Shown: positions 10,477-54,126, numbered from the stretch's first letter. The stretch is DNA of 64,000 bases from Neisseriaceae bacterium (GCA_003963245.1 RXJX01000014.1:164894-228893), one strand, 5' to 3'. Program-made: numbers and translations. Notes: generated by a model from the letters alone, not told the origin.

Positions 10477-10490
10477 CAGCTATATCTCCT

Positions 10491-11537: not shown

Positions 11538-11594
11538 GGAAGAACCTTAAAAAGAGAACGAGTTAATGACTATGCATGCAAGCTGGGAACAAAT

Positions 11595-12176
11595 TTATTT
11601 AGCATAGTATGACGGATAATTAAAAATCAATTTGCTAATATCAAATCCTTGTTTTTCAGCAAGAGAAATTAGGCGCTGAATATCTTCAAGTGCAGGAGTC
11701 TCTTCACGAGAAAAAATCCACAGATATTTTTTATCTGGACTTGCCACCATTGTATAAGATGCATCTGCGTAAATTACCCAATAGTCGCTCAACCCAAGAT
11801 GAGTCCAACGTAACCATGCTGGAAAGGATGTAACAACCAATCGACCATCACCGTTTAAGTTACTTTCAGACAAATATGCAATACCATCCCGTGTATAAAG
11901 ATCACCCGAGAGCGTAGCACAACTATTAGTGACTTGTATTTCGTCACCTTTATGTGCATATTCTATAGTTATGGGCGCCACACAACGCTTTTCAAAATAA
12001 GCTGGCAGCCTAGCAATTTCAAACCACTTACCCATATATTTATCTACCGCAAAGTCATTGATCGCAACAATTTTGCCAGACTCATTACCAACTGCTGCAC
12101 TGGAAAGAGAGGTGCTTGACTCAGCAGCAAAACAACTTCCAGCAACAGACAAAAAGATTAATAATAAACTTTTCAT
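11595..12176 (-). CDS. Lipocalin family protein (Blc-like)
   Basis: Signal peptide; YMGKWFEIARLP lipocalin motif; YLWIFSRE. Confidence 0.85.
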   Translation of the reverse strand: MKSLLLIFLSVAGSCFAAESSTSLSSAAVGNESGKIVAINDFAVDKYMGKWFEIARLPAYFEKRCVAPITIEYAHKGDEIQVTNSCATLSGDLYTRDGIAYLSESNLNGDGRLVVTSFPAWLRWTHLGLSDYWVIYADASYTMVASPDKKYLWIFSREETPALEDIQRLISLAEKQGFDISKLIFNYPSYYAK

Positions 12177-12299
12177 TTAAATATCATTTACCATTTAATA
12201 ATTCAAATTAATCGTTGATAGCAAAACTTTAATTTTAACACATACACTATTTAACAGAGATAGGTAAATTACTATAATTTAACTATCTCTAATATAACC

Positions 12300-13646: not shown

Positions 13647-13656
13647 ATATGTGTTC

Positions 13657-14298
13657 CTATAACAATGATAGTCTATCTGACAACTGACTAATCCACGTAT
13701 TAAAATGTGGACATTTAACTTTAATTTTATCTATATCACAATATAAAGCAAAGTTACTTGCTCCCTTGGTATAAGCAAATTTCTCCAGCTGTTTTGCCGG
13801 ATATTTGCTTGGTATTGTATTTATATTCTCTGGGTTTGAGGCATGATCTTGTAGAATTTGCTCAATTTTGTTTTTGTTTCTGGCTAGCAATGGATCACTT
13901 TGCGTTAATGCCTCAATATCTGCAAAACATAATGCTTCAAATTCATGTGGTTGGACGTAAGGAATTATATTGCGACAACTCGCCGCATTGGCAATTATCT
14001 GCTCTACTTGTATGGATTTATCTTGCGAAGATAAGTTGGGGCTTGCTATAATTTCGCCATAATTACCTAATTTAGCAGCACCAAGACCAACTAAATCAAT
14101 CAATGTCGTAACAATATCGTATTGCGGAGCTACATTTTTCAGCCTATCAATCAGCTTATTATACAAAATACCGCCTTGTAAATTTTGCACATCAATATTT
14201 AGCGTCTTACTTACTTTATTTCGCAGATATACACTTAGCTTATGCTTAACAAAATTTTCTTCGGCGTATCCCTCGACAATAAAACATAAATTAATCAC
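13657..14298 (-). CDS. DUF4276-family (TOPRIM-like) protein
   Basis: GTG at 14298 overlaps the ATPase stop (GTGA). Motifs FIVEGYAE, LIDLVG, QPHEFEALCFAD and CPHFNTW resemble DUF4276. Confidence 0.75.
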   Translation of the reverse strand: MINLCFIVEGYAEENFVKHKLSVYLRNKVSKTLNIDVQNLQGGILYNKLIDRLKNVAPQYDIVTTLIDLVGLGAAKLGNYGEIIASPNLSSQDKSIQVEQIIANAASCRNIIPYVQPHEFEALCFADIEALTQSDPLLARNKNKIEQILQDHASNPENINTIPSKYPAKQLEKFAYTKGASNFALYCDIDKIKVKCPHFNTWISQLSDRLSLL

Positions 14299-35663: not shown

Positions 35664-35683
35664 ATTTTCTGTTAAAATAGCGC
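35664..35683 (+). repeat. attL core
   Basis: ATTTTCTGTTAAAATAGCGC, identical to 54107-54126. Confidence 0.88.
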
Positions 35684-36052: not shown

Positions 36053-37177
36053 ATGTTTCCAGAATCAGAATTGATTTTACCGCTAAAACTAGCATTTAGA
36101 GATCTTAATCATAACGCTACCACCGATGCTGACGCTTGCCAGTTGATAACATGGCTAAAAGAAAATAACAATTGTGCCAAGGCAACTGCAAGAGTGTACC
36201 GTACTATTATTTTACGTTTTTATCTTTATGTGAAGTTTGATCAAAAATTAACATTAGATCAAGTAAAGCGCGGTAACATCATAGATTATCAGATTTTTTT
36301 AAGAAATCCGCCTAAGGAATGGCAAGGTACCTTTCGCCCGCTTGAACATCAATTATGGCGTCCATTTTCATGCAAAAAACTAATCTCAAAAACGATTGCT
36401 TACAACGTTCAGGTTATACAGCAATTATTTTTGTATCTGAAAAATACTGAATATCTGAAATCAACGCCAGCAGCAATACCATTGAAAGTCAAATATGATA
36501 AAGATAGTGATAGCATCCTTAATAAATATTTTACAGAGAAAGAATATCCACAAATAAGTGCTTTCATTAAAAATCAGACAACAAAGACTGATAAGCAGGA
36601 AGAATTAAAGGTCCGTGGTACATGGATATTTAGCCTTTTAATTGGAACCGGAGCTCGAAGATCTGAAGTTGCAAATGCAACAATGAATGATGTAGTATTC
36701 AATGAAGATAGAATATGGCTTAAGGTTCTTGGAAAAGGAAATAAATCTGGAACAATTCCCATTACAAATCAAATTGAGATGGCTCTTAATGAGTACCGTG
36801 CATACTATAATCTGCCACCAATTAGGCAGAGAATAGAATCAGAAAAAAATATTCCGTTAATAATAAAAACTTTCAAAAACGGGAAATACATGACATTTAA
36901 TAGTGCTTTAATAGGCTGGCAGTTGAAGAAAATTGGGCAAGACATGATAAAATCCAAACTAGATATTTGTCACTCTTTCCGAACTAAGCTACAGAATATT
37001 TCTACTCACTGGATGCGGCATACTTCTGCAACAATCCAAGCCAACTGTGGCATAGATATCAGATATGTTCAAAAAAATCTTCGACATGCATCAATTGAAA
37101 CAACAATGAGATACCAACATGTGGAAAAAAATGTACAGCATTTAGAGACCTGCAGTAAATTTGTACTTGATTTGTAA
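36053..37177 (+). CDS. Tyrosine recombinase/integrase
   Basis: Catalytic R (TGARRSE), K (GKGNK), HxxR (HWMRH), H (LRHAS) and Y (TMRY); N-terminal SAM-like region with WRPF. Confidence 0.93.
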   Translation: MFPESELILPLKLAFRDLNHNATTDADACQLITWLKENNNCAKATARVYRTIILRFYLYVKFDQKLTLDQVKRGNIIDYQIFLRNPPKEWQGTFRPLEHQLWRPFSCKKLISKTIAYNVQVIQQLFLYLKNTEYLKSTPAAIPLKVKYDKDSDSILNKYFTEKEYPQISAFIKNQTTKTDKQEELKVRGTWIFSLLIGTGARRSEVANATMNDVVFNEDRIWLKVLGKGNKSGTIPITNQIEMALNEYRAYYNLPPIRQRIESEKNIPLIIKTFKNGKYMTFNSALIGWQLKKIGQDMIKSKLDICHSFRTKLQNISTHWMRHTSATIQANCGIDIRYVQKNLRHASIETTMRYQHVEKNVQHLETCSKFVLDL

Positions 37178-37273: not shown

Positions 37274-38830
37274 ATGAAAATATTGAAACATTGTTTGACG
37301 CTTCTGATTCCTGTGATTGTTACAGCATGTAATGGTGGTGGCGCTTCTGGTGATAGCCCTGCACCAACTCCTACTCAGGCACCAACTCCTACTCCAACCA
37401 CTATCGCTCCATTACAGGTTGAAGTTGTACAACAAACAGCGGATCTAGGAACAGTTAATTGGATTGATTTACGGAAAGTTGGAAGCACTACTAATTTTAA
37501 ACTTAAATTTACCAATACAAATAGTGTGCCAGTTGGGTTTTATGGTGATTCAATTGTAGGTGAAAGCAAAGAGCAGATAAATTTTTTAAATCTTCAAATT
37601 AACTCCATGCATAATATATATTTTGCCAATAATTCATCAACAGACTCTAGTAATTGTGCTTATTATCAACTTCTTAATGGGTATAAAACAACTGAATCTG
37701 GTAAAACAATTTACAACTGGCAAAACGGTAACTCCATGCTTAATCCTGGACAATCTTGTTATTTCAACGTTTTTGCCTACTCTTTTCTCAATATGACTGA
37801 ATCTGATATTTTTAATGTCGCGTTATATTATAACTTACATACCAGTAAATATGACCCGAATGGACTATACAACACGGCAGATTATACAAAATATTACGAG
37901 TCGAACATCATTAACATGAAGCTAGTAAAACTAACGCCTGTTAACGATACTGTAACTAAATCTGTATTCTGGGGTAGCTCTCCAACTATCTCGTTAGATG
38001 GGAAGTATGCTGCTACATCTTCTGTATCTGGTAGTAATGTAACTGTCACTCGATACAATGTTAGCTATGATAATGTTAATGGATTAAATTACACCTCACC
38101 AATCACATTTGTGGTTCCAAATTGTAACTATGCTGGATATGGCGGTATTGGAGCCGCATCATTATCTCCAACCGGTGATGCCGCATTTGTTTCATGTTCT
38201 TATTCAGATCAGCAATGGGTACAAATTTGGAAAATTAATTCCGATGCAACTGCACAATATGAATCATACCTGAATTATTATGGAGCATATTGGATTAGCG
38301 GTTTTGACTATAATGTTTATGCGACACCATCTTATAATGCTACAGCATTTTTTAAATTCAATAATAATAGCTACCAGTTTAGTTCAACTGGCCTCATTAA
38401 CCCGCTCACTTACTTTACAAGTGAGATTAATACCGATGGTACAATTATTCAAGCTAACGGTAGCTATAACTGGCAATGTTTAAATAGTGATGGTAGTGTA
38501 GTTCCTTTAACTGGTTTAGGAGATAATTTCAATGTTTATAACTATAATAATTCAGACTATTTAACTAATTTAGATACAGCACGATTGAGCATTAAATTAC
38601 AATATCCATCAATTCCAATTGAACAATATTCTGATGGCACGGTTTTTAAATATCAACCAAACCTAGTAGGATTAGCAAAAGTTAATACGAGTAATGGTAA
38701 CTGTTATATTGAAAGCAATAACTTTATAAACACTACACAAACAATCGCATTTTACATAACTCCAGATTATGTTGCTATTCCTTACGATGGTACCATATAC
38801 GTCACCAGCAGCAACAATCTAGCTAAGTAA
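37274..38830 (+). CDS. Hypothetical surface lipoprotein with a Pro/Thr linker
   Basis: Lipobox VTAC; PAPTPTQAPTPTPT linker (16-bp DNA repeat at 37361 and 37379); Tyr/Asn-rich beta-structured body. Confidence 0.75.
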   Translation: MKILKHCLTLLIPVIVTACNGGGASGDSPAPTPTQAPTPTPTTIAPLQVEVVQQTADLGTVNWIDLRKVGSTTNFKLKFTNTNSVPVGFYGDSIVGESKEQINFLNLQINSMHNIYFANNSSTDSSNCAYYQLLNGYKTTESGKTIYNWQNGNSMLNPGQSCYFNVFAYSFLNMTESDIFNVALYYNLHTSKYDPNGLYNTADYTKYYESNIINMKLVKLTPVNDTVTKSVFWGSSPTISLDGKYAATSSVSGSNVTVTRYNVSYDNVNGLNYTSPITFVVPNCNYAGYGGIGAASLSPTGDAAFVSCSYSDQQWVQIWKINSDATAQYESYLNYYGAYWISGFDYNVYATPSYNATAFFKFNNNSYQFSSTGLINPLTYFTSEINTDGTIIQANGSYNWQCLNSDGSVVPLTGLGDNFNVYNYNNSDYLTNLDTARLSIKLQYPSIPIEQYSDGTVFKYQPNLVGLAKVNTSNGNCYIESNNFINTTQTIAFYITPDYVAIPYDGTIYVTSSNNLAK

Positions 38831-38835
38831 CCAAA

Positions 38836-38860
38836 AAAGAGCTTCAACAAGAAGCTCTTT
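38836..38860. terminator. Bidirectional terminator between the convergent lipoprotein and PilV-like genes
   Basis: AAAGAGCTTC-aacaa-GAAGCTCTTT with A and T tails. Confidence 0.7.
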
Positions 38861-38866
38861 ATTTTA

Positions 38867-40615
38867 TTACGGTGTCTGGGTATTAAGTTTGGAGGGATCA
38901 TTGGTTATAGTTACATAGTCAAGATTAACAATATGGCTTAATCTAGTTCCGCCATTAGTGTACCAACCGGAGCACCAAGCTGGTGAACCCCATGAATACG
39001 ACTGAAAATTATATTGCTGGGCATTAATTGTAACTGGCACGCCATGACTATTATACGTATATCTTCCACCACCGCCAACATAACTTGCACCTAAATAGCG
39101 CCATGCACCATAACCTCGTTCAGTATCCATAAACCCTCCTTTTTGGTCGCAACCAACAGCAAGATTGTTTGGTGATGGATTGTCACCACATCCAGCTCCT
39201 GGACAATTAGTTATCGCATATGGTGCATTGGGTTGGAATGGATCACTGGTTTCATAATTAATGATAAAGAAGCCTTTAGGAGCCGTATAAGTAGTTGGAT
39301 TGCTCGGATGCGTCCTTATCACTACATTACTGGTAGGGAGGTAACAATAGCCATCATCTGATGAGCAGAGAGGGTTGTACTGGCACATTACTTGTGCTGT
39401 AAATAACTTGGTGTACTGTCCATCATCTGGTTGCATTTGGGCAATGCGGCCAATATTTTCTTTGTGGTATTGATCACAGGTTAGGCTTGATCCTTGTGCG
39501 CTTCCGTCTGTATCTACTGGAATCTTGAGCGTTGGTTGTAATGATAAAACTTGCAAAGAGCCAACGTACGGATTTTGATTAGGGTTATTATTTGGAGCAT
39601 TTGCGCTCTTATTGAATCCTGTTATTTGAACAACTTTTCTGCCGTCATTAGAGGTTGAATAGGCGATTGAGAGTTGTTTGTTAATATTATTTTCCGTATC
39701 TAAACATTGAGAGTCCGATGGTGGACAATTTGGATTATTTTGGAATATTAAGGCGTAATGCTTATTGTATAGAAGGTGTGGTCCTTTTGGCGCTTCCGGA
39801 TTAGGGTGATCCGCACTATTATCCCCTGTTGCATCCATGATTAACTGACCTGTCATAACATTACCATTATCCTTATCGTCTGGATTATCCGTACCATTAT
39901 CAGTAAATCTATGAACAGCGTTATCTGGCTGCAGCATGTCATTATTACGTGACATCCCTATAAGATTAAGTAGAATGCTGTTGTTAGCAATTGAGTTACC
40001 AGCACACTTATAACTATTCTCATTAAGTCCTGTTTGGTCCATATATATATTTTGCGATTGAGATATTTGGTATGGATTAATGACTTTAGTATTATTAAGC
40101 CATAAATCTGGGTTTAAGTTCCAACCTCTACCGTTACTATATATATTATTATCAATAACTGAACCAGCAACATTACCTAGTTGATTAAGCGCAGCACTAA
40201 TTTCTCTTGTGCTCATTGCTTGGGTTTTAGTTGTACTATCACCGCGAAGGACAATTACACCTTGCACCATATTGTTACTGTCTAACGATATCTCTAAACA
40301 TGGAATTTGCTTATAGTTAGTGAGTAATGGCGTATTTTTAGATACATAAGCTTGATCAATTAATGTTTGAATCGGAATCTGGATCTGTGAACCTTGAGCG
40401 CTATTCTGCAGCACGTTGGATAACGCCGTAAAATTATTGGTTATGTACCTTGAATATGCAACAGCAATTGGCTGTAGTGAATTAGCTAGTTTTTCTCCTT
40501 TGTCTTTAAGATAATAATTCTTAATAATAGGATAAGTTGCAGCAGATAAGATCCCAATAATCATTAATGAAATGGAAAGCTCTATAAGAGTGAAACCTGA
40601 ATATTTACTTCTCAT
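38867..40615 (-). CDS. Shufflon-PilV-like pilus tip adhesin (prepilin N-terminus)
   Basis: Class III signal G|FTLIEL plus a TM helix; N-terminal domain pattern AYSRYITNNF...IQTLIDQAYV...QGVIVLRG...LNQLGNVAGSV resembles R64 PilV; Cys/Gly/Trp-rich C-terminal domain. Confidence 0.75.
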   Translation of the reverse strand: MRSKYSGFTLIELSISLMIIGILSAATYPIIKNYYLKDKGEKLANSLQPIAVAYSRYITNNFTALSNVLQNSAQGSQIQIPIQTLIDQAYVSKNTPLLTNYKQIPCLEISLDSNNMVQGVIVLRGDSTTKTQAMSTREISAALNQLGNVAGSVIDNNIYSNGRGWNLNPDLWLNNTKVINPYQISQSQNIYMDQTGLNENSYKCAGNSIANNSILLNLIGMSRNNDMLQPDNAVHRFTDNGTDNPDDKDNGNVMTGQLIMDATGDNSADHPNPEAPKGPHLLYNKHYALIFQNNPNCPPSDSQCLDTENNINKQLSIAYSTSNDGRKVVQITGFNKSANAPNNNPNQNPYVGSLQVLSLQPTLKIPVDTDGSAQGSSLTCDQYHKENIGRIAQMQPDDGQYTKLFTAQVMCQYNPLCSSDDGYCYLPTSNVVIRTHPSNPTTYTAPKGFFIINYETSDPFQPNAPYAITNCPGAGCGDNPSPNNLAVGCDQKGGFMDTERGYGAWRYLGASYVGGGGRYTYNSHGVPVTINAQQYNFQSYSWGSPAWCSGWYTNGGTRLSHIVNLDYVTITNDPSKLNTQTP

Positions 40616-41031
40616 TTATTTCTCCGCTTCTCGAACATTCTTCTTTGTCCTTGGTCAATGATCTCTTGGAATTCGGTGCCGTACAATCCACTATATGATA
40701 TTGTCTCTATTTTTTTTCCGATTTTTGCTTCGATTTCTTCGAGCTTTTTATTAAATTCCATAATGTAAAAACAAAACAATGCTTTATGTGCTGATCTTAG
40801 TGCTACACCGTCGAATCTATCTTGACCTAATACCAAGGGTACCAACGCACCCCACTGATATATTCGGTGATTACGTTCTTTACGTGCTTTGGCTTTATCA
40901 GCTTTTTGTTTTTCTTTTTCTTTTTGAGCATTCAATTGATTTTCGAGTTTTTCTTTCGCTTTTTGAATTTTATTAAGTTCGCGATTAACCAGTTTAATCT
41001 TCTGTTTTGTTTCATTTAATTTATCGTTCAT
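40612..41031 (-). CDS. Mobilization helper protein (TraD/MobC-like coiled coil)
   Basis: N-terminal coiled coil then RKERNHRIYQWGALV, similar to TraD-type RxxRLIxLGGLV; directly downstream of the relaxase. Confidence 0.6.
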   Translation of the reverse strand: MNDKLNETKQKIKLVNRELNKIQKAKEKLENQLNAQKEKEKQKADKAKARKERNHRIYQWGALVPLVLGQDRFDGVALRSAHKALFCFYIMEFNKKLEEIEAKIGKKIETISYSGLYGTEFQEIIDQGQRRMFEKRRNK

Positions 41032-41049
41032 GATTTTCCCTTTTAATTA

Positions 41050-42363
41050 TTAATTCATGATTCCTATGATGTCTAATTTGTGTTTTTGTTTGCTTTTTTG
41101 TAATTTTTTGGTTTCAAGTTTTTTTTGATGATCTTGGTTTTTTAATTCTACGTTTTTATATTTTTCATTATTTGCAATTATATCAATAGCTTGATCGATA
41201 AATCCATCGTTACCAACCAAATTTAATTGATTGCCGAACTGACGTTGTGCTAATTCGATTGCTAATTCAATTGATGGCCTTGAATCTGGATCCATAATCT
41301 GAATTTCTTTTTTTGAATACTTTATTTTTTTGTCTTTCGTTATCCAGATTGGAGTTTTATTTATGTGATCATAATACCGTGTGAAGTATTGGCCATATTC
41401 ACGAGCGAAATCAAATAATACAATTAAATCAGTAGAATATATGCATGCATGTTTTTTTATGTATTTTCTTTTTTTTGTTTTTTCATTATTGATTGGATCT
41501 GGGGATTGTCTTTTTGTTTCATTTATTTTAATTTCTTTTTTTAATTCTTTTTCAATTTCATTTTTTTCTTTTTCTAATTTTTTAGCTTTTTTTTGCCAAT
41601 ATTTTTTTGAAAAATTCAAATTAAATAATTCTCGATAGTATTGGTCAATTTGGCGATTGTGGTCGCCATTATTGGTTTGAATTCCTTGGCGTTCTAGTTG
41701 TGTAGCCTCCCGACCTAGGTGCTTTTTGACTGTTTGTCGGTCCAGTTTCTTTGAGCAACACACTTCTTGGTCAACTCCAGCCAGTTGGAGGTGCCGATTC
41801 TGAATTGTCTCCCAGTCTAGTCTTATTTGTTTAATTTGATCTTGGGTTATAGCCTTACCCTCCTTAATTAATCGTCCATTATCTAGTTCTATGTCAGTCT
41901 TAGCCTTGAGTTGGTATGTGTTAGAGTCGAATATTCTAGTTGTGGTTAATATGTGTGCATGCACATTACCATTATCATCAGATTCATTGTGGATGGCCCA
42001 GTCCGCGACATTCTTGTATCGTGACGTAATTAGCCGTGCGAATTCCCTAGTTAGCTCAATATTCTGTCTAATGGTTAACTCCTGAGGCAGTGCGATTACA
42101 TACTCCCGAGCAGTTCTACTGTTGCTTCGATTATCCGCAGCCTCCGCAGCATTCCATATCTCTGACCGATGTATTGTGTCAATAGTTGTATCTCCATGCG
42201 TAATCTCACTCCACATCAGATCTGTCGACTTCCTGGTGTAGTTATGAATTTTAGATGTGCGGTCGTCGGTGATTATGGCTCGCGCGATGTACGCAATCTT
42301 GGCCGTCGCTGAATGTCCGTCACTGCGCGACACAGTCTTAATTTGCAGGTTATATATAGCCAT
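41050..42363 (-). CDS. mobA: MobA/MobL (MOBQ) relaxase with an LPD7-like C-terminal domain
   Basis: ATG at 42363: MAIYNLQIKTVSRSDGHSATAKIAY (catalytic Tyr), AREYVIALPQEL, WAIHN...NVHAHIL HUH motif; C-terminal IELAIELAQRQFGNQLNLVGNDGF. Confidence 0.9.
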   Translation of the reverse strand: MAIYNLQIKTVSRSDGHSATAKIAYIARAIITDDRTSKIHNYTRKSTDLMWSEITHGDTTIDTIHRSEIWNAAEAADNRSNSRTAREYVIALPQELTIRQNIELTREFARLITSRYKNVADWAIHNESDDNGNVHAHILTTTRIFDSNTYQLKAKTDIELDNGRLIKEGKAITQDQIKQIRLDWETIQNRHLQLAGVDQEVCCSKKLDRQTVKKHLGREATQLERQGIQTNNGDHNRQIDQYYRELFNLNFSKKYWQKKAKKLEKEKNEIEKELKKEIKINETKRQSPDPINNEKTKKRKYIKKHACIYSTDLIVLFDFAREYGQYFTRYYDHINKTPIWITKDKKIKYSKKEIQIMDPDSRPSIELAIELAQRQFGNQLNLVGNDGFIDQAIDIIANNEKYKNVELKNQDHQKKLETKKLQKSKQKHKLDIIGIMN

Positions 42364-42379
42364 TTTTCCTTTCCTTTTT

Positions 42380-42440
42380 GTTACTTTTGTCCCAAAAGTA
42401 ACGCACTGAGAACTGCAAGTTCTCGTATAGTGCGCATTCA
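42380..42440 (+). promoter_or_regulatory. MOBQ-type origin of transfer (oriT)
   Basis: GAGAACT-gca-AGTTCTC (42408-42424) followed by GTATAGTGCG^CA. This matches the MOBQ layout of an IR followed by TAAGTGCG^C (RSF1010/pIP501). A second IR GTTACTTTTG-tcc-CAAAAGTAAC lies at 42380-42402. Confidence 0.8.
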
Positions 42441-42449
42441 CTGTTATAT

Positions 42450-44026: not shown

Positions 44027-44554
44027 ATGCAAGATCGTTTAACAATAAGAAGCAGTCAGCGCAGTGCACCATTAATCGCTCGAGTGGAAGAAATAGCCAA
44101 ACAACGCAACTTTGGGAAGGTAACTCCAGCCCTGCTCGATATACTCGAGCTTGGCTTGAAATCTTTTGATTCAGGTTATCGGTTAGTAGATGGCAAACTA
44201 TTAACCGTTGATGAATTACCAAGTGTTGTCAGTATTGAAAAAGAAGTAGCTAAAAGCCTGTACGGACAATTAACTGGTGAATTAGTAAACCTAGAATACT
44301 ACGAGGAAGAAAAACCACAACCAGACCAGCAAAAACTAGGTTTTTATTTGTTAATCCGTAAAGCGCTGCGAGTAGAACAATCTGGATTTTATAAGCTTAC
44401 GGTTGAACAGGCAATTGCCCGACAGAACACTTTCACGTCACCAATTTTGTTAGCTCTACGAAGCGTTGATACCCCAGAAGAAGTCGAGCGTATTATTTTT
44501 GAATATGAAGCTGAGTTTTTAGAACTAATTCAAAAAACCGGTGTTAGCTTATGA
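44027..44554 (+). CDS. Putative antitoxin with an N-terminal ribbon-helix-helix-like domain
   Basis: GGAGG RBS; beta strand RLTIR then two helices; stop overlaps the zeta toxin start (ATGA). Confidence 0.55.
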   Translation: MQDRLTIRSSQRSAPLIARVEEIAKQRNFGKVTPALLDILELGLKSFDSGYRLVDGKLLTVDELPSVVSIEKEVAKSLYGQLTGELVNLEYYEEEKPQPDQQKLGFYLLIRKALRVEQSGFYKLTVEQAIARQNTFTSPILLALRSVDTPEEVERIIFEYEAEFLELIQKTGVSL

Positions 44555-45369
44555 GCTTTGATCAAAAAATTGCAGACCTAATTTTGCGTAAAGCTCGGCA
44601 GGATTTAGACTTATCAAACAAAACACCCAGTGATAATCCAACTCTTGTTGTTCTAGGTGGTCAGCCTGGTGCTGGAAAATCATCAATTATTGATTTAATT
44701 GATGAACGCTTTAGCGGGAATGTTGCCGTCTTAAATGGTGATGAGCTTAAGCCTTATTATCCGGGATACAAAAGGTTGTTGAAAGAAGATCCAGACAAAG
44801 CCAGTAGAATTGTTCAAGAATATAGCAATTATGCAATTGATGCTATTAAACAAGAGCTGATGCAGCGCCAATATAACTTAATTATTGAAGGTACCATGCG
44901 GAATCCTAATATACCAATAGGAACTGCAAAATCAGCAAGAAGTAACGGTTACTCAGTTGAAGCATGTATAGTAGCAACTAACTATTACGCAAGTCGAGTT
45001 GGTTGCATCAAACGTTATGAACTTGATGTGGCGGTGAGCGGAGTTGGTAGAAGTGTTCCAGTTGCAAGTCATGACGAGGCATATAATAATATTCCTTCAA
45101 CCATTGCAGCATTGGTTGAGTCCAAGCAGTTTGATAATATTCAGATATTCTCGCGTAATGGTGAAATTTTAGGCAATATTATTGATGGTAATGAACTAGC
45201 TCAAATCTATAGCCGCCATCGAGAAAATCTTTCATCAGAGTTATATCAAGAAATATTGCAAAATCTAGACACAACAAAATATATGAAAAATTCCAGAGCC
45301 GCTCCCAGTGATGAATTATTTGAATTAGATAGTTTAAAAGATGAATTTTTGGCAAAATATAGATTATGA
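44551..45369 (+). CDS. Zeta toxin family kinase (PezT/zeta-like)
   Basis: GGQPGAGKS P-loop, NGDELK, IIEGTMRN, KRYE and GRSVP correspond to zeta catalytic motifs. Confidence 0.88.
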   Translation: MSFDQKIADLILRKARQDLDLSNKTPSDNPTLVVLGGQPGAGKSSIIDLIDERFSGNVAVLNGDELKPYYPGYKRLLKEDPDKASRIVQEYSNYAIDAIKQELMQRQYNLIIEGTMRNPNIPIGTAKSARSNGYSVEACIVATNYYASRVGCIKRYELDVAVSGVGRSVPVASHDEAYNNIPSTIAALVESKQFDNIQIFSRNGEILGNIIDGNELAQIYSRHRENLSSELYQEILQNLDTTKYMKNSRAAPSDELFELDSLKDEFLAKYRL

Positions 45370-46260: not shown

Positions 46261-47943
46261 TCATTTTTTAGATTTGAAATTACTCGATATATAATTCAAA
46301 TCTAACTTATCATAGTTTATCATTCTACCATAAATATACCCTTGAATTTTAGGATATGACGGCAACTCTGATATTGCAGTATTTAAACACCAACAATACT
46401 CGCTTGATGTCCACATATCTCTTGCTGAGTTTGCAATATTACATAGAATTAAGGATTCAAATCCGCTAGGGAGTACTATACTAGATCGATTTTGTTTATA
46501 TTTTTTACTTGAATAATTTATATAACATTTAATTTTATAATAAATAGATACATTATTACAGCCTAAACCAAAGCATTCTAACAACATTGAAAAGATTGAA
46601 AGTTCCTTAAAATGTTCAACAAAATGTTTATTATAGAACTTCTCCCAGTTCGGTATCCTTTGTTCTTTAACAACGCTAAGGTTATATAAAATAAAAAAAT
46701 AATACAGAAATTGTTTATGCTTTTTTTTGCTGGTGGAATAGATTTCGAGAATTTTATTCATAAGATTTGTCAAATCATTAATTTTACCGATCTGAAGTTG
46801 TACCATAAACGCGTTCAATCTTAGTACAGCCTGTTCTTCTGTAAAGTTTTCATGTTGCCACACCCATAGTTCTGGGGACAGCTCTGCATTCATTATTCCA
46901 GGTAAATTTGACCGCCAGTTATACTTTTCATGTTTAACCTTTGGCAATTTATGTACAACGTTCATGATAACATGTCTAACGAGCCTAAACAAACCAGAAA
47001 ATGTTAAATATGGCTGCCCAAATACAATTAATGAGTCTATTTTAGACATCTGTATCATTTTTAATTGCATTGGAACACTATCTAAACCATGAACAAATCT
47101 AGATCTAATGTTATAAGTATTTAGTAACGATTGCTTTAGTTGACTAAACGGAATAGGGTTTTGAACATTAATTGTACCAGATGTAAAAAATGATTCATCA
47201 ATGTTATCTTCAATAAAAGTAATAAATGATTGTTGCGCCTTTGGATGCTGAGATTCGATTAATATACGTTTAATCTCATGAATATTGCTAAGCGATATAT
47301 CTTTGAATACAACGCCTAATTGATGCCTAATTTTCTCATCAATGTCGTTCCAAGTAGTTCTTGTATTACCAATGTTACCAGCCAAAGATTCTAAACAATA
47401 CACCAATAAACTATATGCCATTTCAAAGTTATAATTTAATACTTCAATAGAATCTTGTACGGTTCGTATAGATGATATTATTTTTTGATAACTATTTCTC
47501 TCGAGTCCAATTATTTCATCAACAAACTTTGTTAAAAATTCGGTTTCAGCTAATGTCAACGTTCGATTGAATTTAACGATTTGGGGAAGTATTTCAGCTG
47601 GTAATACACCGTTGGATTCAGCTGATTTATTTTGATTACATATACTTAATACATGTTCCCTAGTTCTGGAGAAGTAGGCATTAAACCCAAAACTACAAAT
47701 AATCTTAAACTGTTCAAGTATCTCACTATCTCCAACACGAACTAGAAAACCATCACGCTCGATTCTGTTCACATAATTGAATACGTAGGTCGCTACTCTA
47801 TCCTGAGTAATTATAGGTTCTAAATCCCCAACAACAGTCTCAATCTTACTAACCCAACTGACATTAGAAAATAATACTCCTTTCCCATGATTAATTTCAA
47901 GATCATTAGAAGAGAAAAATTTGCCACTAATAATTTGTAACAT
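46261..47943 (-). CDS. HEPN-domain (ApeA-like) protein, putative defence RNase
   Basis: LLVYCLESL ... YNIRSRFVHG (Rx4H) motif; located in a defence cluster. Confidence 0.65.
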   Translation of the reverse strand: MLQIISGKFFSSNDLEINHGKGVLFSNVSWVSKIETVVGDLEPIITQDRVATYVFNYVNRIERDGFLVRVGDSEILEQFKIICSFGFNAYFSRTREHVLSICNQNKSAESNGVLPAEILPQIVKFNRTLTLAETEFLTKFVDEIIGLERNSYQKIISSIRTVQDSIEVLNYNFEMAYSLLVYCLESLAGNIGNTRTTWNDIDEKIRHQLGVVFKDISLSNIHEIKRILIESQHPKAQQSFITFIEDNIDESFFTSGTINVQNPIPFSQLKQSLLNTYNIRSRFVHGLDSVPMQLKMIQMSKIDSLIVFGQPYLTFSGLFRLVRHVIMNVVHKLPKVKHEKYNWRSNLPGIMNAELSPELWVWQHENFTEEQAVLRLNAFMVQLQIGKINDLTNLMNKILEIYSTSKKKHKQFLYYFFILYNLSVVKEQRIPNWEKFYNKHFVEHFKELSIFSMLLECFGLGCNNVSIYYKIKCYINYSSKKYKQNRSSIVLPSGFESLILCNIANSARDMWTSSEYCWCLNTAISELPSYPKIQGYIYGRMINYDKLDLNYISSNFKSKK

Positions 47944-48036
47944 AACGACTCGTTTTTAACACAATGATAATTTTACTTGGTAGCTTATTCTTAATATTAT
48001 TAGTAAATTTAAGTTAACTTGTGATATAAATCAGAT

Positions 48037-49251
48037 TTAACTATTACTTGTCTGTCTGTTATATAATAAGTGAATAAAAGTATCTAAGTTAATAATCCAA
48101 TCCTGTTGTGATGCCGAATAACTACTATGAATACTACTTGGTAAAACTAACTGCACGTTTTTAGATATCATTTCGTTAGTCTGATTTTCACTAATTCCTG
48201 GTTCTAGAGTAAATAGGTGTTTATTATTTATTCGATTAGCTTCTGGCAATATTTGCCGCCAACGATCTTTACAAGTGGACTTTGCACCTAACATAGATAA
48301 TAACTCTTCTGGAAATGCTGGATTATGATAACTCGCTATATCTGGAAAAATAAAATCTGGTTTATTTCTATTTTCGGTTATCGCCGTACGACTATAACTA
48401 ATATTCTTTATCTTAAAAATTTGCTCTAAATGATTTTCTAGTGAACCACCAGCCCTCGATTTACGTCGATTTTGTACACTGAGTGAATATGATACAAATG
48501 AATCAACATCATCATCAAATCCCTGCCGCAATCTATCACCAATAATATGTCTTTCTAGGGTTCTAAATAAAACTTCTTCACGTTCTAACCACGCCATAAT
48601 AATTTCGTCTGCGCTACCCGTAAGATCAATGTCTGAAATCGTTGATCTTGCATATTCAGAGAAAATTCGCGTCGTAGGAAATGATCCATCGAATTTTTCT
48701 AGCATCTGTTCGAGGTAGTTTTCATCTGTCGTCTGGACTTCGATACCAATTTGCTCAAGTATATACCTTGAAGCAAATTCTAGCCTAACCTGATCACTTT
48801 CCAACTCGCCCTTAACTGAAAAACCAGGATGCGTCAAATCGCTAAAACCAAATAACCATAATATCTGATTCTCAATAGTTGACTCTGCTTCAGCTATTAT
48901 TAATAATATAGAATTATCTGGTCTGCGTCCAATAACCAATAAATCACCTTCATTAGCATTACTTGATACATTGGTAGTTGGGAAATATAACCTAAACTCA
49001 GTTCTGATAGGATGATTTTCTCTAGCATCATACCAAGTCAGCGTTGATCTTTCTGTTATTGGTTCTGGATCATCGTCACTAAGATAAATAAAGGTTGTCC
49101 CGTAGGTTTTCCTATCTGTTCCAAACATACCTTTCAAACCTTTATCACCATTGAATTCGTGCTGATTAGAACGATGTGGGTGGGCTTCTACTGCACTAAG
49201 CCTTTTAGTTGCTACATGCGTAAAATACTCGGATAGGTAACCTCTTTTCAT
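48037..49251 (-). CDS. EcoRII-family type II restriction endonuclease
   Basis: RRKSRAGGSLENHL, KPDFIFP, AKSTCKDRWRQIL and HLFTLEPGIS; N-terminal KRLS effector-like domain. Confidence 0.92.
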   Translation of the reverse strand: MKRGYLSEYFTHVATKRLSAVEAHPHRSNQHEFNGDKGLKGMFGTDRKTYGTTFIYLSDDDPEPITERSTLTWYDARENHPIRTEFRLYFPTTNVSSNANEGDLLVIGRRPDNSILLIIAEAESTIENQILWLFGFSDLTHPGFSVKGELESDQVRLEFASRYILEQIGIEVQTTDENYLEQMLEKFDGSFPTTRIFSEYARSTISDIDLTGSADEIIMAWLEREEVLFRTLERHIIGDRLRQGFDDDVDSFVSYSLSVQNRRKSRAGGSLENHLEQIFKIKNISYSRTAITENRNKPDFIFPDIASYHNPAFPEELLSMLGAKSTCKDRWRQILPEANRINNKHLFTLEPGISENQTNEMISKNVQLVLPSSIHSSYSASQQDWIINLDTFIHLLYNRQTSNS

Positions 49252-49289
49252 AAATAAACCTCTATGATATTAAAATAAGCCAGACAACT

Positions 49290-50552
49290 TCAAACCACAA
49301 GTTGCTCTTGTACCATCTTAGATTTTTCTACTAAAGATAAAATATGCGGCTGCATGATTTTTGCAACATGCTCAATAAGCGGCACTACGACAGAATTACC
49401 AAATTGCTTATATGCTCTAGTGTCAGAAACAATAATTTTGAATGAATCATCAAACCCCATCAGTCTCGCACACTCCCTAGGCGTTAGCCTACGAGGATTT
49501 TTTCCAGGACCTCTAGTGATAAGAATTTCCGAGCCATCTTTATAATAGCGCGCAGATAATGTTCTTGCTGTATCATTAGGTCCAACAACACTACAACCAA
49601 ACCCATTACCTAAAGCTTTATGTTTTGCAGCATAAGCTTGGAGGTACGCCCATAGCTTATCAGTAAGTACATATTTAGAACATACTTTACCTGAATTACC
49701 AACTATAAACCTTCCTTCATCAATATCTAACTCTGTTGCATCTTCTGCATGAAGAATATCACTCAGTTTAGGCGAATCAATTGTAATATCGGGTAAAGGG
49801 ATGGAATTCCAATCAAATTCGACTTTGTCTTTAAACCCTACGATAATAATACGTTCGCGATTTTGTGGAGTAAAATGTTTACCGTTAATAACTTTATAAC
49901 TAATATGATAGCCAAGCTGATTTTCTAATGTATCTTTAATTACAGCAAAAGTATTACCTTTATCATGAGAAAGTAAATTTTTAACATTCTCTAATAAAAA
50001 TGCTTTTGGCTGTTTCTCAGCAATGATTCTAGCCACGTCAAAGAATAATGTACCCTGGGTTGTACACTCAAAGCCATGAGGTTTACCTAATGCATTTTTT
50101 TTGGAAACGCCTGCAATACTAAAAGGTTGACAAGGAAATCCTGCTAATAAAACATCATGATCAGGAATATCACTAGCATTAACTTGGGTAATATCTCCAG
50201 CTATAGGATGCTCATCACCAAAATTTGCGGCATAAGTCTTTTGTGCATAAAAATCCCACTCAGAAGTAAAAACACATTTACCACCAATTGACTCAAAACC
50301 CAAACGAATCCCGCCAATGCCAGCGAATAAATCAATGAAAGTAAATGCTTCACTAGTAAGATTTGACTTCTTATTTCCTTGTAGTATTTCTTTAAGAGCT
50401 GGAACAACTGCAATAGGGATCTGTGTTTGACCAGATTCCCAACGAGAGATATGCCGTGGAGAATAGTCTAAAAAATGAGCAAGCTCTTTTTGGGAGTACA
50501 CCTTTCGCAACTGAGAAAGAATGCGTGGAGCTTCTATATTTGATAACTTCAT
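49290..50552 (-). CDS. dcm: Dcm/M.EcoRII-like C5 cytosine methyltransferase with an N-terminal HTH
   Basis: FIDLFAGIGG, GFPCQ, ENVKNL, QNRER, TLSARYYKDG and QFGNSV; N-terminal SQKELA...ISRWESG HTH; Dcm-like TRD suggests CCWGG. Confidence 0.93.
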   Translation of the reverse strand: MKLSNIEAPRILSQLRKVYSQKELAHFLDYSPRHISRWESGQTQIPIAVVPALKEILQGNKKSNLTSEAFTFIDLFAGIGGIRLGFESIGGKCVFTSEWDFYAQKTYAANFGDEHPIAGDITQVNASDIPDHDVLLAGFPCQPFSIAGVSKKNALGKPHGFECTTQGTLFFDVARIIAEKQPKAFLLENVKNLLSHDKGNTFAVIKDTLENQLGYHISYKVINGKHFTPQNRERIIIVGFKDKVEFDWNSIPLPDITIDSPKLSDILHAEDATELDIDEGRFIVGNSGKVCSKYVLTDKLWAYLQAYAAKHKALGNGFGCSVVGPNDTARTLSARYYKDGSEILITRGPGKNPRRLTPRECARLMGFDDSFKIIVSDTRAYKQFGNSVVVPLIEHVAKIMQPHILSLVEKSKMVQEQLVV

Positions 50553-51695: not shown

Positions 51696-52274
51696 ATGAC
51701 TAAAAAATCAACAGGAAAAAATATTGGCTATGTTCGCGTTAGTACCGTCGAACAAAATACTAGCCGACAATTAGAAGAAATATCTCTCGATAAAAAGTTT
51801 ATTGATAAATGCTCTGGCAAGGATACAAATCGACCTAGCCTACAACTCATGTTAGATTATGTTCGAGATGGTGATATTGTTTATGTTCACTCAATGGATA
51901 GGTTAGCTCGTAACTTAGAAGACTTACGAAAGATCATAAGTACTTTGGCCGAGAAAAAAGTCAAGATACATTTTGTTAAAGAATCACTGATCTTCAATGG
52001 TGAAGATTCGCCAATGGCTAACTTCATGTTAAATATCATGGGAGCATTTGCTGAGTTTGAACGAGCGTTGATCCGAGAGCGACAAAAAGAAGGGATTGCA
52101 ATCGCTAAAAAAGATGGTAAATATCATGGGCGTAGTAAATGTTTAACCTCTGAACAATTACAAGAAATCAAACAGCTAGTAGCAGATAGATATAAGAAAA
52201 CTGAGATCGCTGAAAGATTCGGAATCAGCCGTGACACCTTATATCGTTATCTTCGGAATAATAAATCGCAGTAA
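51696..52274 (+). CDS. Serine recombinase (resolvase/invertase family)
   Basis: GYVRVST, DRLARN, AEFERALIRERQ and C-terminal HTH IAERFGISRDTLYRYL. Confidence 0.95.
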   Translation: MTKKSTGKNIGYVRVSTVEQNTSRQLEEISLDKKFIDKCSGKDTNRPSLQLMLDYVRDGDIVYVHSMDRLARNLEDLRKIISTLAEKKVKIHFVKESLIFNGEDSPMANFMLNIMGAFAEFERALIRERQKEGIAIAKKDGKYHGRSKCLTSEQLQEIKQLVADRYKKTEIAERFGISRDTLYRYLRNNKSQ

Positions 52275-54106: not shown

Positions 54107-54126
54107 ATTTTCTGTTAAAATAGCGC
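54107..54126 (+). repeat. attR core, overlapping the probable ybaB extended -10
   Basis: ATTTTCTGTTAAAATAGCGC identical to attL; lies in the perfect IR GCTATTTT-ctgtt-AAAATAGC; contains TGnTAAAAT about 35 nt before the ybaB ATG. Confidence 0.88.

What the first reader, a model, noticed from the sequence alone, without database searches (positions are those of the whole stretch)
38867..42440. Mobilization operon ending in a PilV-like pilus-tip adhesin on an element with no pilus or T4SS
Seen in sequence: oriT, the MOBQ relaxase, a TraD/MobC-like helper (18-bp gap with RBS) and a prepilin-type 582-aa protein (ATGA overlap) form one tightly coupled unit. No pilin assembly, coupling-protein or T4SS genes lie between the att sites. 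Established: in IncI1 R64, PilV is the type IV pilus tip adhesin whose C-terminus sets recipient specificity by binding LPS, and mobilizable elements borrow mating machinery in trans. Inference: this element may load its own tip adhesin onto a helper plasmid's pilus or the host pilus, steering which cells it is delivered to. The host has pilT/pilU at 9310-11537, and the short G|FTLIE leader is type IVa-like. I do not know of this being described for mobilizable elements, which makes it the best new-system candidate here.
Basis: partly seen in the sequence, partly recalled or inferred. Interest (0 to 1): 0.85.

Follow-up and report, generated by a model that had tools for sequence, protein, structure and literature searches.

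The report
Mobilizable island carrying its own PilV adhesin
An 18-kb mobilizable island with no pilus or secretion machinery carries a mating-pilus adhesin gene (PilV family) and a partner lipoprotein gene behind its DNA-transfer genes; it probably mounts this adhesin on the thin pilus of a conjugative element in the same genome, a layout already recorded but unexplained in ROD21-like islands of enterobacteria.

Summary
On the minus strand, an oriT-like hairpin plus core is followed by a MobA/MobL (MOBQ) relaxase. After an 18-nt gap with a ribosome-binding site comes a 139-aa gene, then, in an ATGA overlap, a 582-aa prepilin. A two-way terminator shared with a convergent lipoprotein gene closes the unit. 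No pilus-assembly, coupling-protein or T4SS gene lies between the 20-bp att repeats.

The 582-aa protein misses Pfam Shufflon_N directly. Its subfamily profile matches annotated plasmid PilV proteins over about 250 N-terminal residues (hhalign 98.3%, E 1.3e-14). Its closest full-length relatives lie just after pilS in R64-type thin-pilus clusters, followed by the same convergent lipoprotein. So the island holds a PilV-plus-lipoprotein cartridge taken from such a cluster.

The same genome has an ICE (contig C2) with a VirB-type T4SS, a coupling protein, a full thin-pilus cluster and paralogous cartridges. In this genus, five further small elements carry such PilV genes without pilus genes.

The helper-pilus reading is plausible but untested. 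The novelty claim is overstated: ROD21-like (EARL) islands are published with MOBQ, TraD and PilS/PilV genes and no pilus machinery. SGI1 shows the principle with TraN/TraG/TraH.

Verdict: new variant of a known kind, interest about 0.58.

The parts
35664..35683 (.). Left copy of the 20-bp direct repeat (candidate attL) that bounds the 18.4-kb island
   Evidence: Exact repeat ATTTTCTGTTAAAATAGCGC, second copy at 54107-54126
36053..37177 (+). Tyrosine recombinase (XerC/D-like integrase) of the island
   Evidence: Pfam Phage_integrase 76.8 bits. It is 35% identical to the integrase of the ICE on C2 and 43.5% to the integrase of the G017:C58 element
37274..38830 (+). 518-aa lipoprotein, the constant partner of this PilV type. 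It has a lipobox (LIPVIVTA|CNGGG) followed by a Pro/Thr-rich linker.
   Evidence: No Pfam, NCBIfam or PDB sequence match. It is 29-31% identical over its full length to the convergent gene after PilV#2 in the thin-pilus clusters L074 and L075. In 38 genomes of the genus, 12 of the 13 strongest hits (E <= 4e-26) lie next to a PilV-like gene
38836..38860 (.). Two-way intrinsic terminator between the convergent lipoprotein and PilV-like genes
   Evidence: Perfect 10-bp stem with T-runs on both strands
38867..40615 (-). 582-aa prepilin: a divergent PilV-family minor pilin (the 'PilV#2' type) with a Cys-rich, variable C-terminal half
   Evidence: N_methyl / TIGR02532 hits. hhalign of its subfamily against annotated PilV: 98.3%, E 1.3e-14, residues 4-256. 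Paralogues in the ICE thin-pilus cluster. Closest relatives lie in thin-pilus clusters. In the AF2 model, residues 10-220 have pLDDT 80-90 and form a long N-terminal helix followed by a beta-sheet
40612..41031 (-). 139-aa coiled-coil protein, a possible TraD-like relaxosome accessory factor, translationally coupled to the PilV-like gene
   Evidence: ATGA overlap with the pilV start; 18-nt gap with an RBS after the relaxase. Homologues lie next to the related relaxases on C19, G019:C16 and L063. No HMM hit
41050..42363 (-). MOBQ (MobA/MobL) relaxase with a C-terminal LPD7-like region
   Evidence: Pfam MobA_MobL 138 bits; NCBIfam MobQ 163.7 bits (below its 200 cut-off); TraA_Ti N-terminal region 180 bits. 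The start MAIY and the motif HAHILTTTR are conserved in homologues
42394..42424 (-). oriT-like site: inverted repeat GAGAACT-TGC-AGTTCTC, then AG, then the core TGCGTTACTTTT
   Evidence: Sequence read. The same repeat and core lie beside the relaxase of plasmid C19. A compensated repeat with the same core lies on the G019 plasmid
54107..54126 (.). Right copy of the 20-bp direct repeat (candidate attR)

Best explanation
What it is (shown). The 582-aa gene encodes a divergent member of the PilV family, the large minor pilins of R64/ICE-type thin (type IVb) conjugative pili. With the convergent 518-aa lipoprotein gene it forms a two-gene cartridge. In related bacteria this cartridge lies inside the thin-pilus cluster, just after pilS and a first PilV. 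Here it sits on an 18.4-kb integrative mobilizable element. It is fused to the element's transfer operon (oriT, MOBQ relaxase, 139-aa accessory gene, pilV), and a shared two-way terminator closes the unit. The element has no pilus-assembly, coupling-protein or T4SS genes. The same genome has an ICE (contig C2) with a VirB-type T4SS, a VirD4 coupling protein, a MOBP-like relaxase/primase, a complete PilL-N-O-P-Q-R-S thin-pilus cluster and its own PilV and lipoprotein genes. The genome has one prepilin peptidase.

How it most likely works (inferred). When the mob operon is expressed, the prepilin is made together with the relaxase and cut by the host peptidase. It is then built into the ICE-encoded thin pilus as an alternative or additional adhesin subunit. 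Its variable Cys-rich C-terminal half adds or changes the recipient surface that the pilus binds. This stabilises mating pairs through which the element's relaxase-bound DNA leaves via the ICE's coupling protein and T4SS. The lipoprotein is a cognate partner, for example a docking or assembly factor or a self-exclusion factor; its role is unknown.
For: Family:
- Class III signal peptide.
- The subfamily profile matches annotated plasmid PilV at 98.3%, E 1.3e-14, over residues 4-256.
- Paralogues of 25% identity (E 6e-24) lie in the ICE cluster, and one of those reaches the Shufflon_N gathering score.
- The AF2 N-terminal domain is confident and pilin-like in secondary structure.

Origin of the cartridge:
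- The closest full-length relatives, P0003 and P0004, lie at the second PilV position of clusters ordered secretin, PilO, PilP, PilQ, PilR, PilS.
- Each is followed by a convergent homologue of the window's lipoprotein.
- In 13 genomes of the genus, PilV-like genes directly follow pilS.
- 12 of the 13 strongest lipoprotein homologues lie next to a PilV-like gene.

Coupling to transfer:
- ATGA overlap and an 18-nt gap with an RBS.
- No internal terminator; a shared terminal terminator.
- The oriT is shared with a sibling MOBQ plasmid.

Helper in the same cell:
- T4SS and coupling protein on C2.
- Thin-pilus genes on C2.
- A single prepilin peptidase.

Recurrence on small elements without pilus genes:
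- G000:C17, an island with MOBQ, lipoprotein, a PilV 53% identical to the ICE's, and TrbL.
- G019:C16, a Rep3 plasmid with MOBQ, TrbL and two PilV genes.
- G017:C58, with an integrase 43.5% identical to the window's, PilV, and a TrbL 61.5% identical to the ICE's.
- G012:C39, a Rep3 plasmid with PilV and lipoprotein.
- G037:C42, a Rep3 plasmid with three PilV genes and a lipoprotein.

Precedents:
- SGI1 replaces helper TraN/TraG/TraH with its own (PMC5389848).
- An R64 thin pilus added to RP4 improves liquid mating (PMC13732124).
Against:
- The protein does not hit Shufflon_N directly and has no match among plasmid records.
- Foldseek found no PDB match for the model.
- It is only 25% identical to the ICE's own PilV proteins, so fit with that particular pilus is uncertain.
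- Three nearly complete genomes (G012, G017, G037) carry such PilV genes but have no pilS and no thin-pilus ATPase. The gene therefore persists without a resident helper pilus.
- A PilV-lipoprotein pair also sits alone between purB and glmS in G033, so the link to mobilization is not obligatory.
- For EARL islands the literature favours a benefit to the host rather than to the island (PMC10763509).
Confidence: 0.5

Rival explanations
1. Host-benefit cargo. The PilV-like pilin, with its lipoprotein, is built into the host's chromosomal type IVa pilus (pilT/pilU lie in the window; pilB and pilD lie elsewhere). There it serves adhesion, aggregation or DNA uptake for the host, with no role in the element's own transfer.
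For: - The leader is short and the N-terminal helix resembles type IVa pilins (FTLIEL...IIGILSAA); there are weak hits to PpdD and GspG models.
- There is one shared prepilin peptidase.
- Three nearly complete genomes carry such PilV genes with no thin-pilus genes.
- A chromosomal stand-alone pair exists in G033.
- This is the reading offered in the literature for EARL islands (PMC10763509).
Against: - Every close relative in a pilus context lies beside pilS of type IVb clusters, never in a type IVa minor-pilin operon.
- Translational coupling to the relaxase operon ties its expression to transfer.
- Sibling elements pair the PilV gene with a TrbL/VirB6 gene, which is a conjugation part.
Confidence: 0.18
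2. Passenger remnant. The cartridge is a piece of a thin-pilus cluster picked up by recombination with an ICE. It is kept by linkage only and has no function on the island.
For: - The cartridge has the same gene pair and orientation as in the clusters L074 and L075.
- The nearest relative, on L001, is a 5'-truncated copy that lacks the pilin domain.
- Partial PilV fragments are common in the genus.
Against: - Both genes are intact, with a signal peptide and a lipobox.
- The pilin gene is precisely overlapped with the mob operon and has a clean terminator.
- At least six small elements with different backbones (XerC-like integrase, P4-like integrase, Rep3 plasmids) keep intact PilV genes of very different sequence types, which argues for repeated selection.
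Confidence: 0.12
3. Interference or exclusion. The island's PilV and lipoprotein do not extend the helper's reach. They compete with or cap the helper's pilus, or the lipoprotein masks the receptor. This would bias transfer towards the island, or keep donors from mating with cells that already carry it.
For: - Hitchers commonly manipulate or inhibit helpers; examples are SGI1's TraG substitution that escapes exclusion and its inhibition of IncC transfer (PMC5389848, PMC13635750).
- The strict pairing of adhesin and outer-membrane-type lipoprotein fits a ligand plus blocker pair.
- PilV and lipoprotein identities fall together across five pairs.
Against: - The same pair occurs inside the helpers' own clusters, where self-sabotage makes little sense.
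- There is no similarity to known exclusion proteins.
Confidence: 0.1

Closest known systems
EARL (Enterobacterales-associated ROD21-like) genomic islands, e.g. ROD21 of Salmonella Enteritidis and ICEKp258.2 of Klebsiella pneumoniae ST258 (PMC10763509, PMC3976249)
   Same: They are excisable, mobilizable islands with an integrase, a MOBQ relaxase, a small TraD gene followed in the same direction by type IV pilin genes (including a PilV-like protein of about 520 aa), often a restriction-modification system, and no pilus-assembly or T4SS genes. ROD21 moves by conjugation using functions encoded outside the island.
   Different: EARL islands insert at tRNA-Asn genes and use a P4-type integrase with an RDF; this island has a XerC/D-like integrase and no tRNA at its ends. 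EARL islands also carry a PilS-like major pilin; this one does not. Here the pilin gene overlaps the mob operon and has an obligate lipoprotein partner. The host belongs to a low-GC genus in which one member MAG is labelled Burkholderiales. Sequence relatedness to EARL proteins could not be tested with the collections at hand.
PilV of IncI1 R64 / IncI2 TP114 thin pili, with the shufflon (PMC12282955, PMC10654706)
   Same: It is a large minor pilin of a type IVb conjugative thin pilus. It has a conserved N-terminal pilin region, homologous by profile comparison, and a variable C-terminal part that sets recipient recognition in liquid mating.
   Different: There is no shufflon: no sfx-like repeats, no Rci and no alternative C-terminal segments. 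The C-terminal half is an unrelated Cys-rich domain that ends in a conserved ITCTND-like motif. Diversity comes from several separate PilV genes and dispersed cartridges. The direct Shufflon_N HMM hit is absent.
SGI1 and the IncA/IncC helper plasmids (PMC5389848)
   Same: It is an integrative mobilizable element that encodes its own versions of helper mating-apparatus parts (TraN mating-pair stabiliser, TraG, TraH), which replace the helper's and favour the island's own spread. Sibling elements here carry TrbL/VirB6 copies, one of them 61.5% identical to the ICE's.
   Different: SGI1 replaces T4SS (MPF-F) subunits, not a type IV pilus adhesin. Its substitution is shown by experiment; here it is only inferred.
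PAPI-1 / ICEclc-type ICEs with a type IVb pilus (PMC5297154)
   Same: These are ICE-borne pilL-to-pilV thin-pilus clusters that recognise recipient LPS to start transfer. The ICE on contig C2 is of this general design.
   Different: In PAPI-1 the PilV gene stays on the self-transmissible element. The C2 ICE uses a VirB-type T4SS.

Membership tests
PilV / Shufflon_N minor pilins of thin (type IVb) conjugative pili | Class III (prepilin) signal: Gly at -1, hydrophobic +1, Glu at +5 | tested here: met
   MRSKYSG|FTLIE; N_methyl 29.1 bits, TIGR02532 28 bits
PilV / Shufflon_N minor pilins of thin (type IVb) conjugative pili | Direct match to Pfam PF04917 (Shufflon_N) at the gathering score | tested here: not met
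   No hit at E <= 0.1 for the window protein. Only 4 of 22 family members hit. The paralogue C2 PilV493 reaches 37.4 bits against a 27.5 cut-off
PilV / Shufflon_N minor pilins of thin (type IVb) conjugative pili | Homology of the N-terminal constant region to bona fide PilV | tested here: met
   hhalign of 17 subfamily members (none of which hits Shufflon_N) against 4 annotated plasmid PilV proteins: probability 98.3%, E 1.3e-14, 213 columns, residues 4-256
PilV / Shufflon_N minor pilins of thin (type IVb) conjugative pili | Gene located after pilS in a pilL-to-pilV type cluster | tested here: not met
   The window gene follows a relaxase operon. Its closest relatives and the genus-wide homologues do follow pilS
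PilV / Shufflon_N minor pilins of thin (type IVb) conjugative pili | Shufflon (sfx repeats plus Rci) that swaps C-terminal segments | tested here: not met
   No inverted or direct repeats flank the 3' end, and the next gene is the convergent lipoprotein. The island's only extra recombinase is a serine resolvase 11 kb away
PilV / Shufflon_N minor pilins of thin (type IVb) conjugative pili | Type IV pilin fold of the N-terminal domain | tested here: inconclusive
   AF2 with a 22-sequence alignment: residues 10-220 have pLDDT 80-90 and form a helix (10-60) followed by beta-strands. Foldseek against the PDB gave no match with E < 1
PilV / Shufflon_N minor pilins of thin (type IVb) conjugative pili | Presence in thin pili and binding to recipient surface (LPS) | not testable with these tools
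   Needs pilus preparation and binding or mating assays
MOBQ (MobA/MobL) relaxases | MobA_MobL domain with an N-terminal catalytic Tyr and a His-rich motif | tested here: met
   PF03389 138 bits. MAIY start and HAHILTTTR are conserved in three homologues. NCBIfam MobQ scores 163.7 bits, under its 200-bit equivalog cut-off
EARL (ROD21-like) genomic islands | Insertion at a tRNA-Asn gene, with a P4-type integrase and an RDF | tested here: not met
   No tRNA in the 64-kb window. The integrase's best hits are XerC/XerD models. An RDF was not searched for
EARL (ROD21-like) genomic islands | TraD plus MOBQ relaxase module | tested here: inconclusive
   The MOBQ relaxase is present. The 139-aa gene resembles TraD only by motif, with no HMM hit
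EARL (ROD21-like) genomic islands | PilS-like and PilV-like genes without pilus machinery | tested here: inconclusive
   A PilV-like gene is present without machinery, but the island has no PilS-like gene
Helper-reshaping mobilizable islands (SGI1-like strategy) | The island encodes a homologue of a mating-apparatus part that the helper also encodes | tested here: met
   The window PilV matches ICE PilV494 at 25% identity, E 6e-24. C17 PilV matches ICE PilV494 at 53%. G017 TrbL matches ICE TrbL at 61.5%
Helper-reshaping mobilizable islands (SGI1-like strategy) | The island's part functionally replaces or complements the helper's and raises island transfer | not testable with these tools
   Needs mating assays with deletion mutants

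The most novel reading that the evidence does not exclude
In this genus the shufflon is replaced by a distributed set of PilV-plus-lipoprotein cartridges. Conjugative elements hold two or three. Mobilizable islands, small Rep3 plasmids and even chromosomal sites each hold their own. Each hitcher brings its own recipient-recognition cartridge, and in some cases its own VirB6, to a shared ICE-encoded thin pilus and T4SS. Which cells receive DNA would then be set by the hitcher rather than the helper. The lipoprotein would be the cognate partner that docks the adhesin or marks cells that already carry the element.
Probability: 0.25. Interest if true: 0.8.

Novelty: new variant of a known kind. 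Interest (0 to 1): 0.58.

Why it matters
Recipient choice in conjugation is usually credited to the self-transmissible element, through TraN or through PilV and its shufflon. If mobilizable elements bring their own pilus adhesin, the hitcher would help decide where genes flow.

That would also give a testable role to the orphan PilS/PilV genes conserved in ROD21-like islands, including ICEKp258.2 of K. pneumoniae ST258, whose function is still open.

This genome offers a compact natural system for the test. It has one ICE with the machine, two islands with different cartridges, and one sibling MOBQ plasmid without a cartridge as a built-in control. The strict PilV-lipoprotein pairing is also an unexplained feature of these thin pili.

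Tried and rejected
- AF2 on the single sequence failed (pLDDT 33). The alignment-based model gave a good N-terminal domain, but Foldseek against the PDB found nothing.
- A profile search of PDB sequences matched only the N-terminal pilin helix. The lipoprotein had no PDB sequence match.
- tblastn of the window protein against 72,556 plasmids found no match.
- The word-indexed protein search found only one outside relative, a 5'-truncated copy.
The metagenome scan added five distant loci, one of them in a full pil cluster; the other four showed no pil-machinery gene in the stretch held.
- I suspected that the 18,677-bp Logan contig was the excised circle, because its size is close to the island's. 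Its end runs into the chromosomal flank beyond attL, so it is the integrated form.
- The 573-aa protein on G037:C42 looked MOBV-like (HEDETSTHFHY), but Pfam gave no hit, so I do not count it as a relaxase.
- My first alignment of oriT regions missed the C19 copy. A pattern search then found it.
- The organism's name could not be obtained. The only label is that of a MAG from the same genus, 'Burkholderiales bacterium'.

Full report
**1. What is in the sequence.**
Between an exact 20-bp direct repeat (35664-35683 and 54107-54126) lies an 18.4-kb island.

Its ORFs of at least 100 aa are:
- a XerC/D-like tyrosine recombinase (36053-37177);
- a 518-aa lipoprotein (37274-38830, +);
- on the minus strand, a 582-aa prepilin (38867-40615), a 139-aa coiled-coil protein (40612-41031) and a MobA/MobL relaxase (41050-42441 as an ORF);
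- then two unknowns, an antitoxin-like gene with a zeta toxin, two more unknowns, an EcoRII-C endonuclease, an m5C methylase, a serine resolvase and a small unknown.

None is a pilus-assembly, coupling-protein or T4SS gene.

The relaxase probably starts at the ATG at 42363, because three homologues all begin MAIY.

- relaxase stop, 18 nt containing AAGGGA, then the ATG of the 139-aa gene;
- the 139-aa stop overlaps the pilin start in ATGA.

No terminator-like site lies inside the unit on the minus strand. A perfect 10-bp two-way terminator (38836-38860) fills the 36-bp gap to the convergent lipoprotein gene.

Upstream of the relaxase, the inverted repeat GAGAACT-TGC-AGTTCTC is followed by the core TGCGTTACTTTT.
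- The same repeat and core stand beside a 49%-identical relaxase on a 7.4-kb circular contig (C19) of the same genome.
- A related plasmid (G019:C16) has a different, self-complementary repeat in front of the same core.

This is the pattern expected of an oriT.

**2. What the 582-aa protein is.**
Pfam and NCBIfam see only the prepilin signal (MRSKYSG|FTLIE). Shufflon_N does not hit.

A full HMMER scan of 1.8 billion representative proteins found 62 relatives. About 17 of them are full-length proteins of 510-610 aa at 26-39% identity.

The own genome holds three paralogues of 491-494 aa.
- Two lie in one cluster on contig C2. Its gene order is a TcpQ/PilL-like gene, secretin, two unknown genes, T2SSE ATPase, T2SSF platform, PilS (PF08805), a 189-aa gene, PilV, and then lipoprotein and PilV.
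- One of these paralogues reaches the Shufflon_N gathering score. By tblastn it matches genes annotated as 'shufflon system plasmid conjugative transfer pilus tip adhesin PilV'.

To test the window's own subfamily, I aligned its 17 members, none of which hits Shufflon_N. I compared this profile with four annotated plasmid PilV proteins. hhalign gave 98.3% probability and E 1.3e-14 over residues 4-256, including the HRF...N.M...L.MD motif at the end of the constant region.

An AF2 model built on 22 sequences is confident for residues 10-220 (pLDDT 80-90). It shows a 50-residue N-terminal helix and a beta-sheet. The C-terminal half is poor, and Foldseek found no PDB match.

So homology to the PilV constant region is established by profile comparison. 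The fold test is inconclusive.

The C-terminal half has 12 cysteines and a variable stretch at about residues 450-545. It is unrelated to R64 PilV. No shufflon repeats or Rci are present.

**3. Where the gene comes from.**
The two closest full-length relatives lie in metagenomic contigs with a complete thin-pilus cluster. The order there is secretin, PilO-like, PilP-like, PilQ ATPase, PilR, PilS, a 229-aa gene, a first PilV (687-756 aa), then the relative of the window protein. Next comes a convergent gene of about 505 aa and a third PilV.

The convergent gene is 29-31% identical over its full length to the window's lipoprotein. The island therefore holds the 'second PilV plus convergent lipoprotein' piece of such a cluster, in the same relative orientation.

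In the 38 species genomes of this genus:
- 18 have PilV-like genes;
- in 13 of them the genes directly follow pilS, in arrays of two to five;
- 12 of the 13 strongest lipoprotein homologues (E <= 4e-26) lie next to a PilV-like gene. The thirteenth (G037:C7) has none on its contig.

PilV and lipoprotein identities fall together across five pairs (PilV / lipoprotein):

| Pair | PilV identity | Lipoprotein identity |
|---|---|---|
| window vs L001 | 72% | 59% |
| C17 vs C2 | 53% | 40% |
| window vs L074 | 38% | 31% |
| window vs L075 | 34% | 29% |
| window vs C2 | 25% | about 24% |

The pair is inherited as a unit.

**4. A helper in the same genome.**
Contig C2 carries:
- the thin-pilus cluster;
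- VirB4, VirB8, VirB9, VirB10, TrbL/VirB6, VirB11, a lytic transglycosylase and a VirD4-type coupling protein;
- an 1849-aa protein with the C-terminal part of a TraI/MobP relaxase model, LPD7 and Toprim;
- a tyrosine recombinase 35% identical to the island's.

It is a self-transmissible element with a relaxase type different from the island's.

The genome has a single prepilin peptidase, next to the host pilB-like gene. The ICE's PilS and PilV have leaders as short as the window protein's. The leader therefore does not say which pilus the protein joins.

**5. Recurrence.**
Besides the window island, five small elements in the genus carry PilV-like genes and no pilus-assembly genes.

| Element | Backbone | Relevant genes |
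|---|---|---|
| G000:C17, an island next to mnmE | P4-like integrase | MOBQ relaxase, lipoprotein, a PilV 53% identical to the ICE's, TrbL/VirB6 |
| G019:C16, a 16.8-kb plasmid | Rep3, ParA | TraD-like gene, MOBQ relaxase 48% identical to the window's, TrbL, two PilV genes |
| G017:C58 | Integrase 43.5% identical to the window's, a resolvase | Small lipoprotein, PilV, a TrbL 61.5% identical to the ICE's |
| G012:C39, a 7.9-kb plasmid | Rep3 | PilV and lipoprotein |
| G037:C42, a 19.8-kb plasmid | Rep3 | Lipoprotein convergent with an 887-aa PilV, plus two more PilV genes |

These PilV genes are of very different sequence types, so the cartridge was acquired or kept several times.

Three of these host genomes (G012, G017, G037) are at least 99% complete. 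They have neither pilS nor a thin-pilus ATPase. In G033, a PilV-lipoprotein pair sits alone between purB and glmS.

So the cartridge travels and persists apart from the machine. This fits a part that acts in trans. It also leaves room for a role that does not need the thin pilus.

**6. Mechanism.**
Shown:
- family membership by profile comparison;
- origin of the cartridge in thin-pilus clusters;
- tight coupling to the mob operon;
- absence of machinery on the island;
- presence of a complete machine on a co-resident ICE;
- recurrence on other hitchers.

Inferred:
- The prepilin is made with the relaxase and processed by the host peptidase.
- It is built into the ICE's thin pilus as an extra or alternative adhesin.
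- This helps to form mating pairs through which the island leaves by way of the ICE's coupling protein and T4SS.

The lipoprotein's role is unknown. Docking or assembly of the adhesin, or self-exclusion, are the obvious options.

I put this reading at 0.5. The rivals are a host-benefit adhesin on the type IVa pilus (0.18), a functionless remnant (0.12) and interference or exclusion (0.10).

**7. Comparison with what is known.**
- EARL islands, among them ROD21 and ICEKp258.2, have as their conserved backbone an integrase with an RDF, TraD with a MOBQ relaxase, and pilus-related genes. They have no pilus machinery.
- In ICEKp258.2 the order is TraD, a type IV major pilin, then a 519-aa 'type II secretion system protein', all in one direction (PMC10763509).
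- ROD21 is described as carrying MobA, TraD, PilS and PilV homologues. It transfers by conjugation using functions encoded outside the island (PMC3976249).

Those authors lean towards a benefit for the host.

The principle that a hitcher replaces helper mating parts is shown for SGI1 (PMC5389848). PilV and the shufflon are established as recipient-specificity devices (PMC12282955, PMC10654706).

Two further literature searches found no paper that shows a mobilizable element loading its own PilV on a helper pilus.

This island is not an EARL member by its integration module. Sequence relatedness could not be tested.

New here are:
- the overlap of the pilin gene with the mob operon;
- the obligate lipoprotein partner;
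- the clear origin of the cartridge inside thin-pilus clusters;
- the co-resident ICE with paralogous cartridges;
- the sibling elements that add a VirB6 copy.

**8. Verdict.**
- Observation: confirmed.
- Novelty: new variant of a known kind.
- Interest: 0.58.

The natural set in one genome (an ICE, two islands with different cartridges, and one MOBQ plasmid without a cartridge) makes the hypothesis directly testable.

Noticed in passing
G000 contig C2, about 5.8-72.7 kb (loci L011, L062, L067): A self-transmissible element. It has a thin-pilus cluster, a VirB4/8/9/10/6/11 T4SS, a VirD4 coupling protein, topoisomerase III, an 1849-aa relaxase/primase-like polyvalent protein and a XerC-like integrase. 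A VapBC-like pair is inserted between its two PilV genes.
   Followed up: partly
G000 contig C17:139-155 kb (locus L012): A second mobilizable island next to mnmE. It has a P4-like integrase, a lipoprotein, a PilV 53% identical to the ICE's, a TrbL/VirB6 copy, a Fic-like/HTH pair, a MOBQ relaxase and a divergent TraD-like gene.
   Followed up: partly
G000 contig C19 (7,457 bp; locus L069): Probably a circular small plasmid, because the relaxase ORF runs across the contig ends. Its MOBQ relaxase is 49% identical to the window's, and it has the same oriT inverted repeat and core. It has no PilV gene, so it is a natural control for the cartridge.
   Followed up: partly
window 51696-52274 (+): A serine resolvase/invertase (Resolvase plus HTH_7) near the right end of the island. 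A similar one lies on the G017:C58 element. Its role (multimer resolution or inversion) was not examined.
   Followed up: no
L001 (ENA ERZ3756521 contig, 3,245 bp) 373-1482: The closest relative of the window pilin (68-73% identity) lacks the first 218 residues, that is, the pilin domain. It still has the convergent lipoprotein gene, which is 59% identical to the window's. It may be a truncated remnant or a silent cassette.
   Followed up: partly
Thin-pilus clusters of G006, G009, G016, G026 and G035: Short ORFs of about 200-260 aa match only the central Cys-rich part (profile positions about 300-490) of the PilV family. They lie between the first and second PilV genes. They may be split genes in MAGs or separate domain-only proteins.
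   Followed up: no
L051 = G033:C9:5001-25000, at 10555-13995: A PilV-lipoprotein pair lies alone between purB and glmS, with no mobile-element genes within 10 kb. That genome's pil cluster is on another contig.
   Followed up: partly
window 46261-50552 (-): An HTH-m5C methylase, an EcoRII-C endonuclease and a 560-aa protein with no family match lie in one orientation on the island. A zeta toxin with a 175-aa upstream partner lies at 44027-45369.
   Followed up: no
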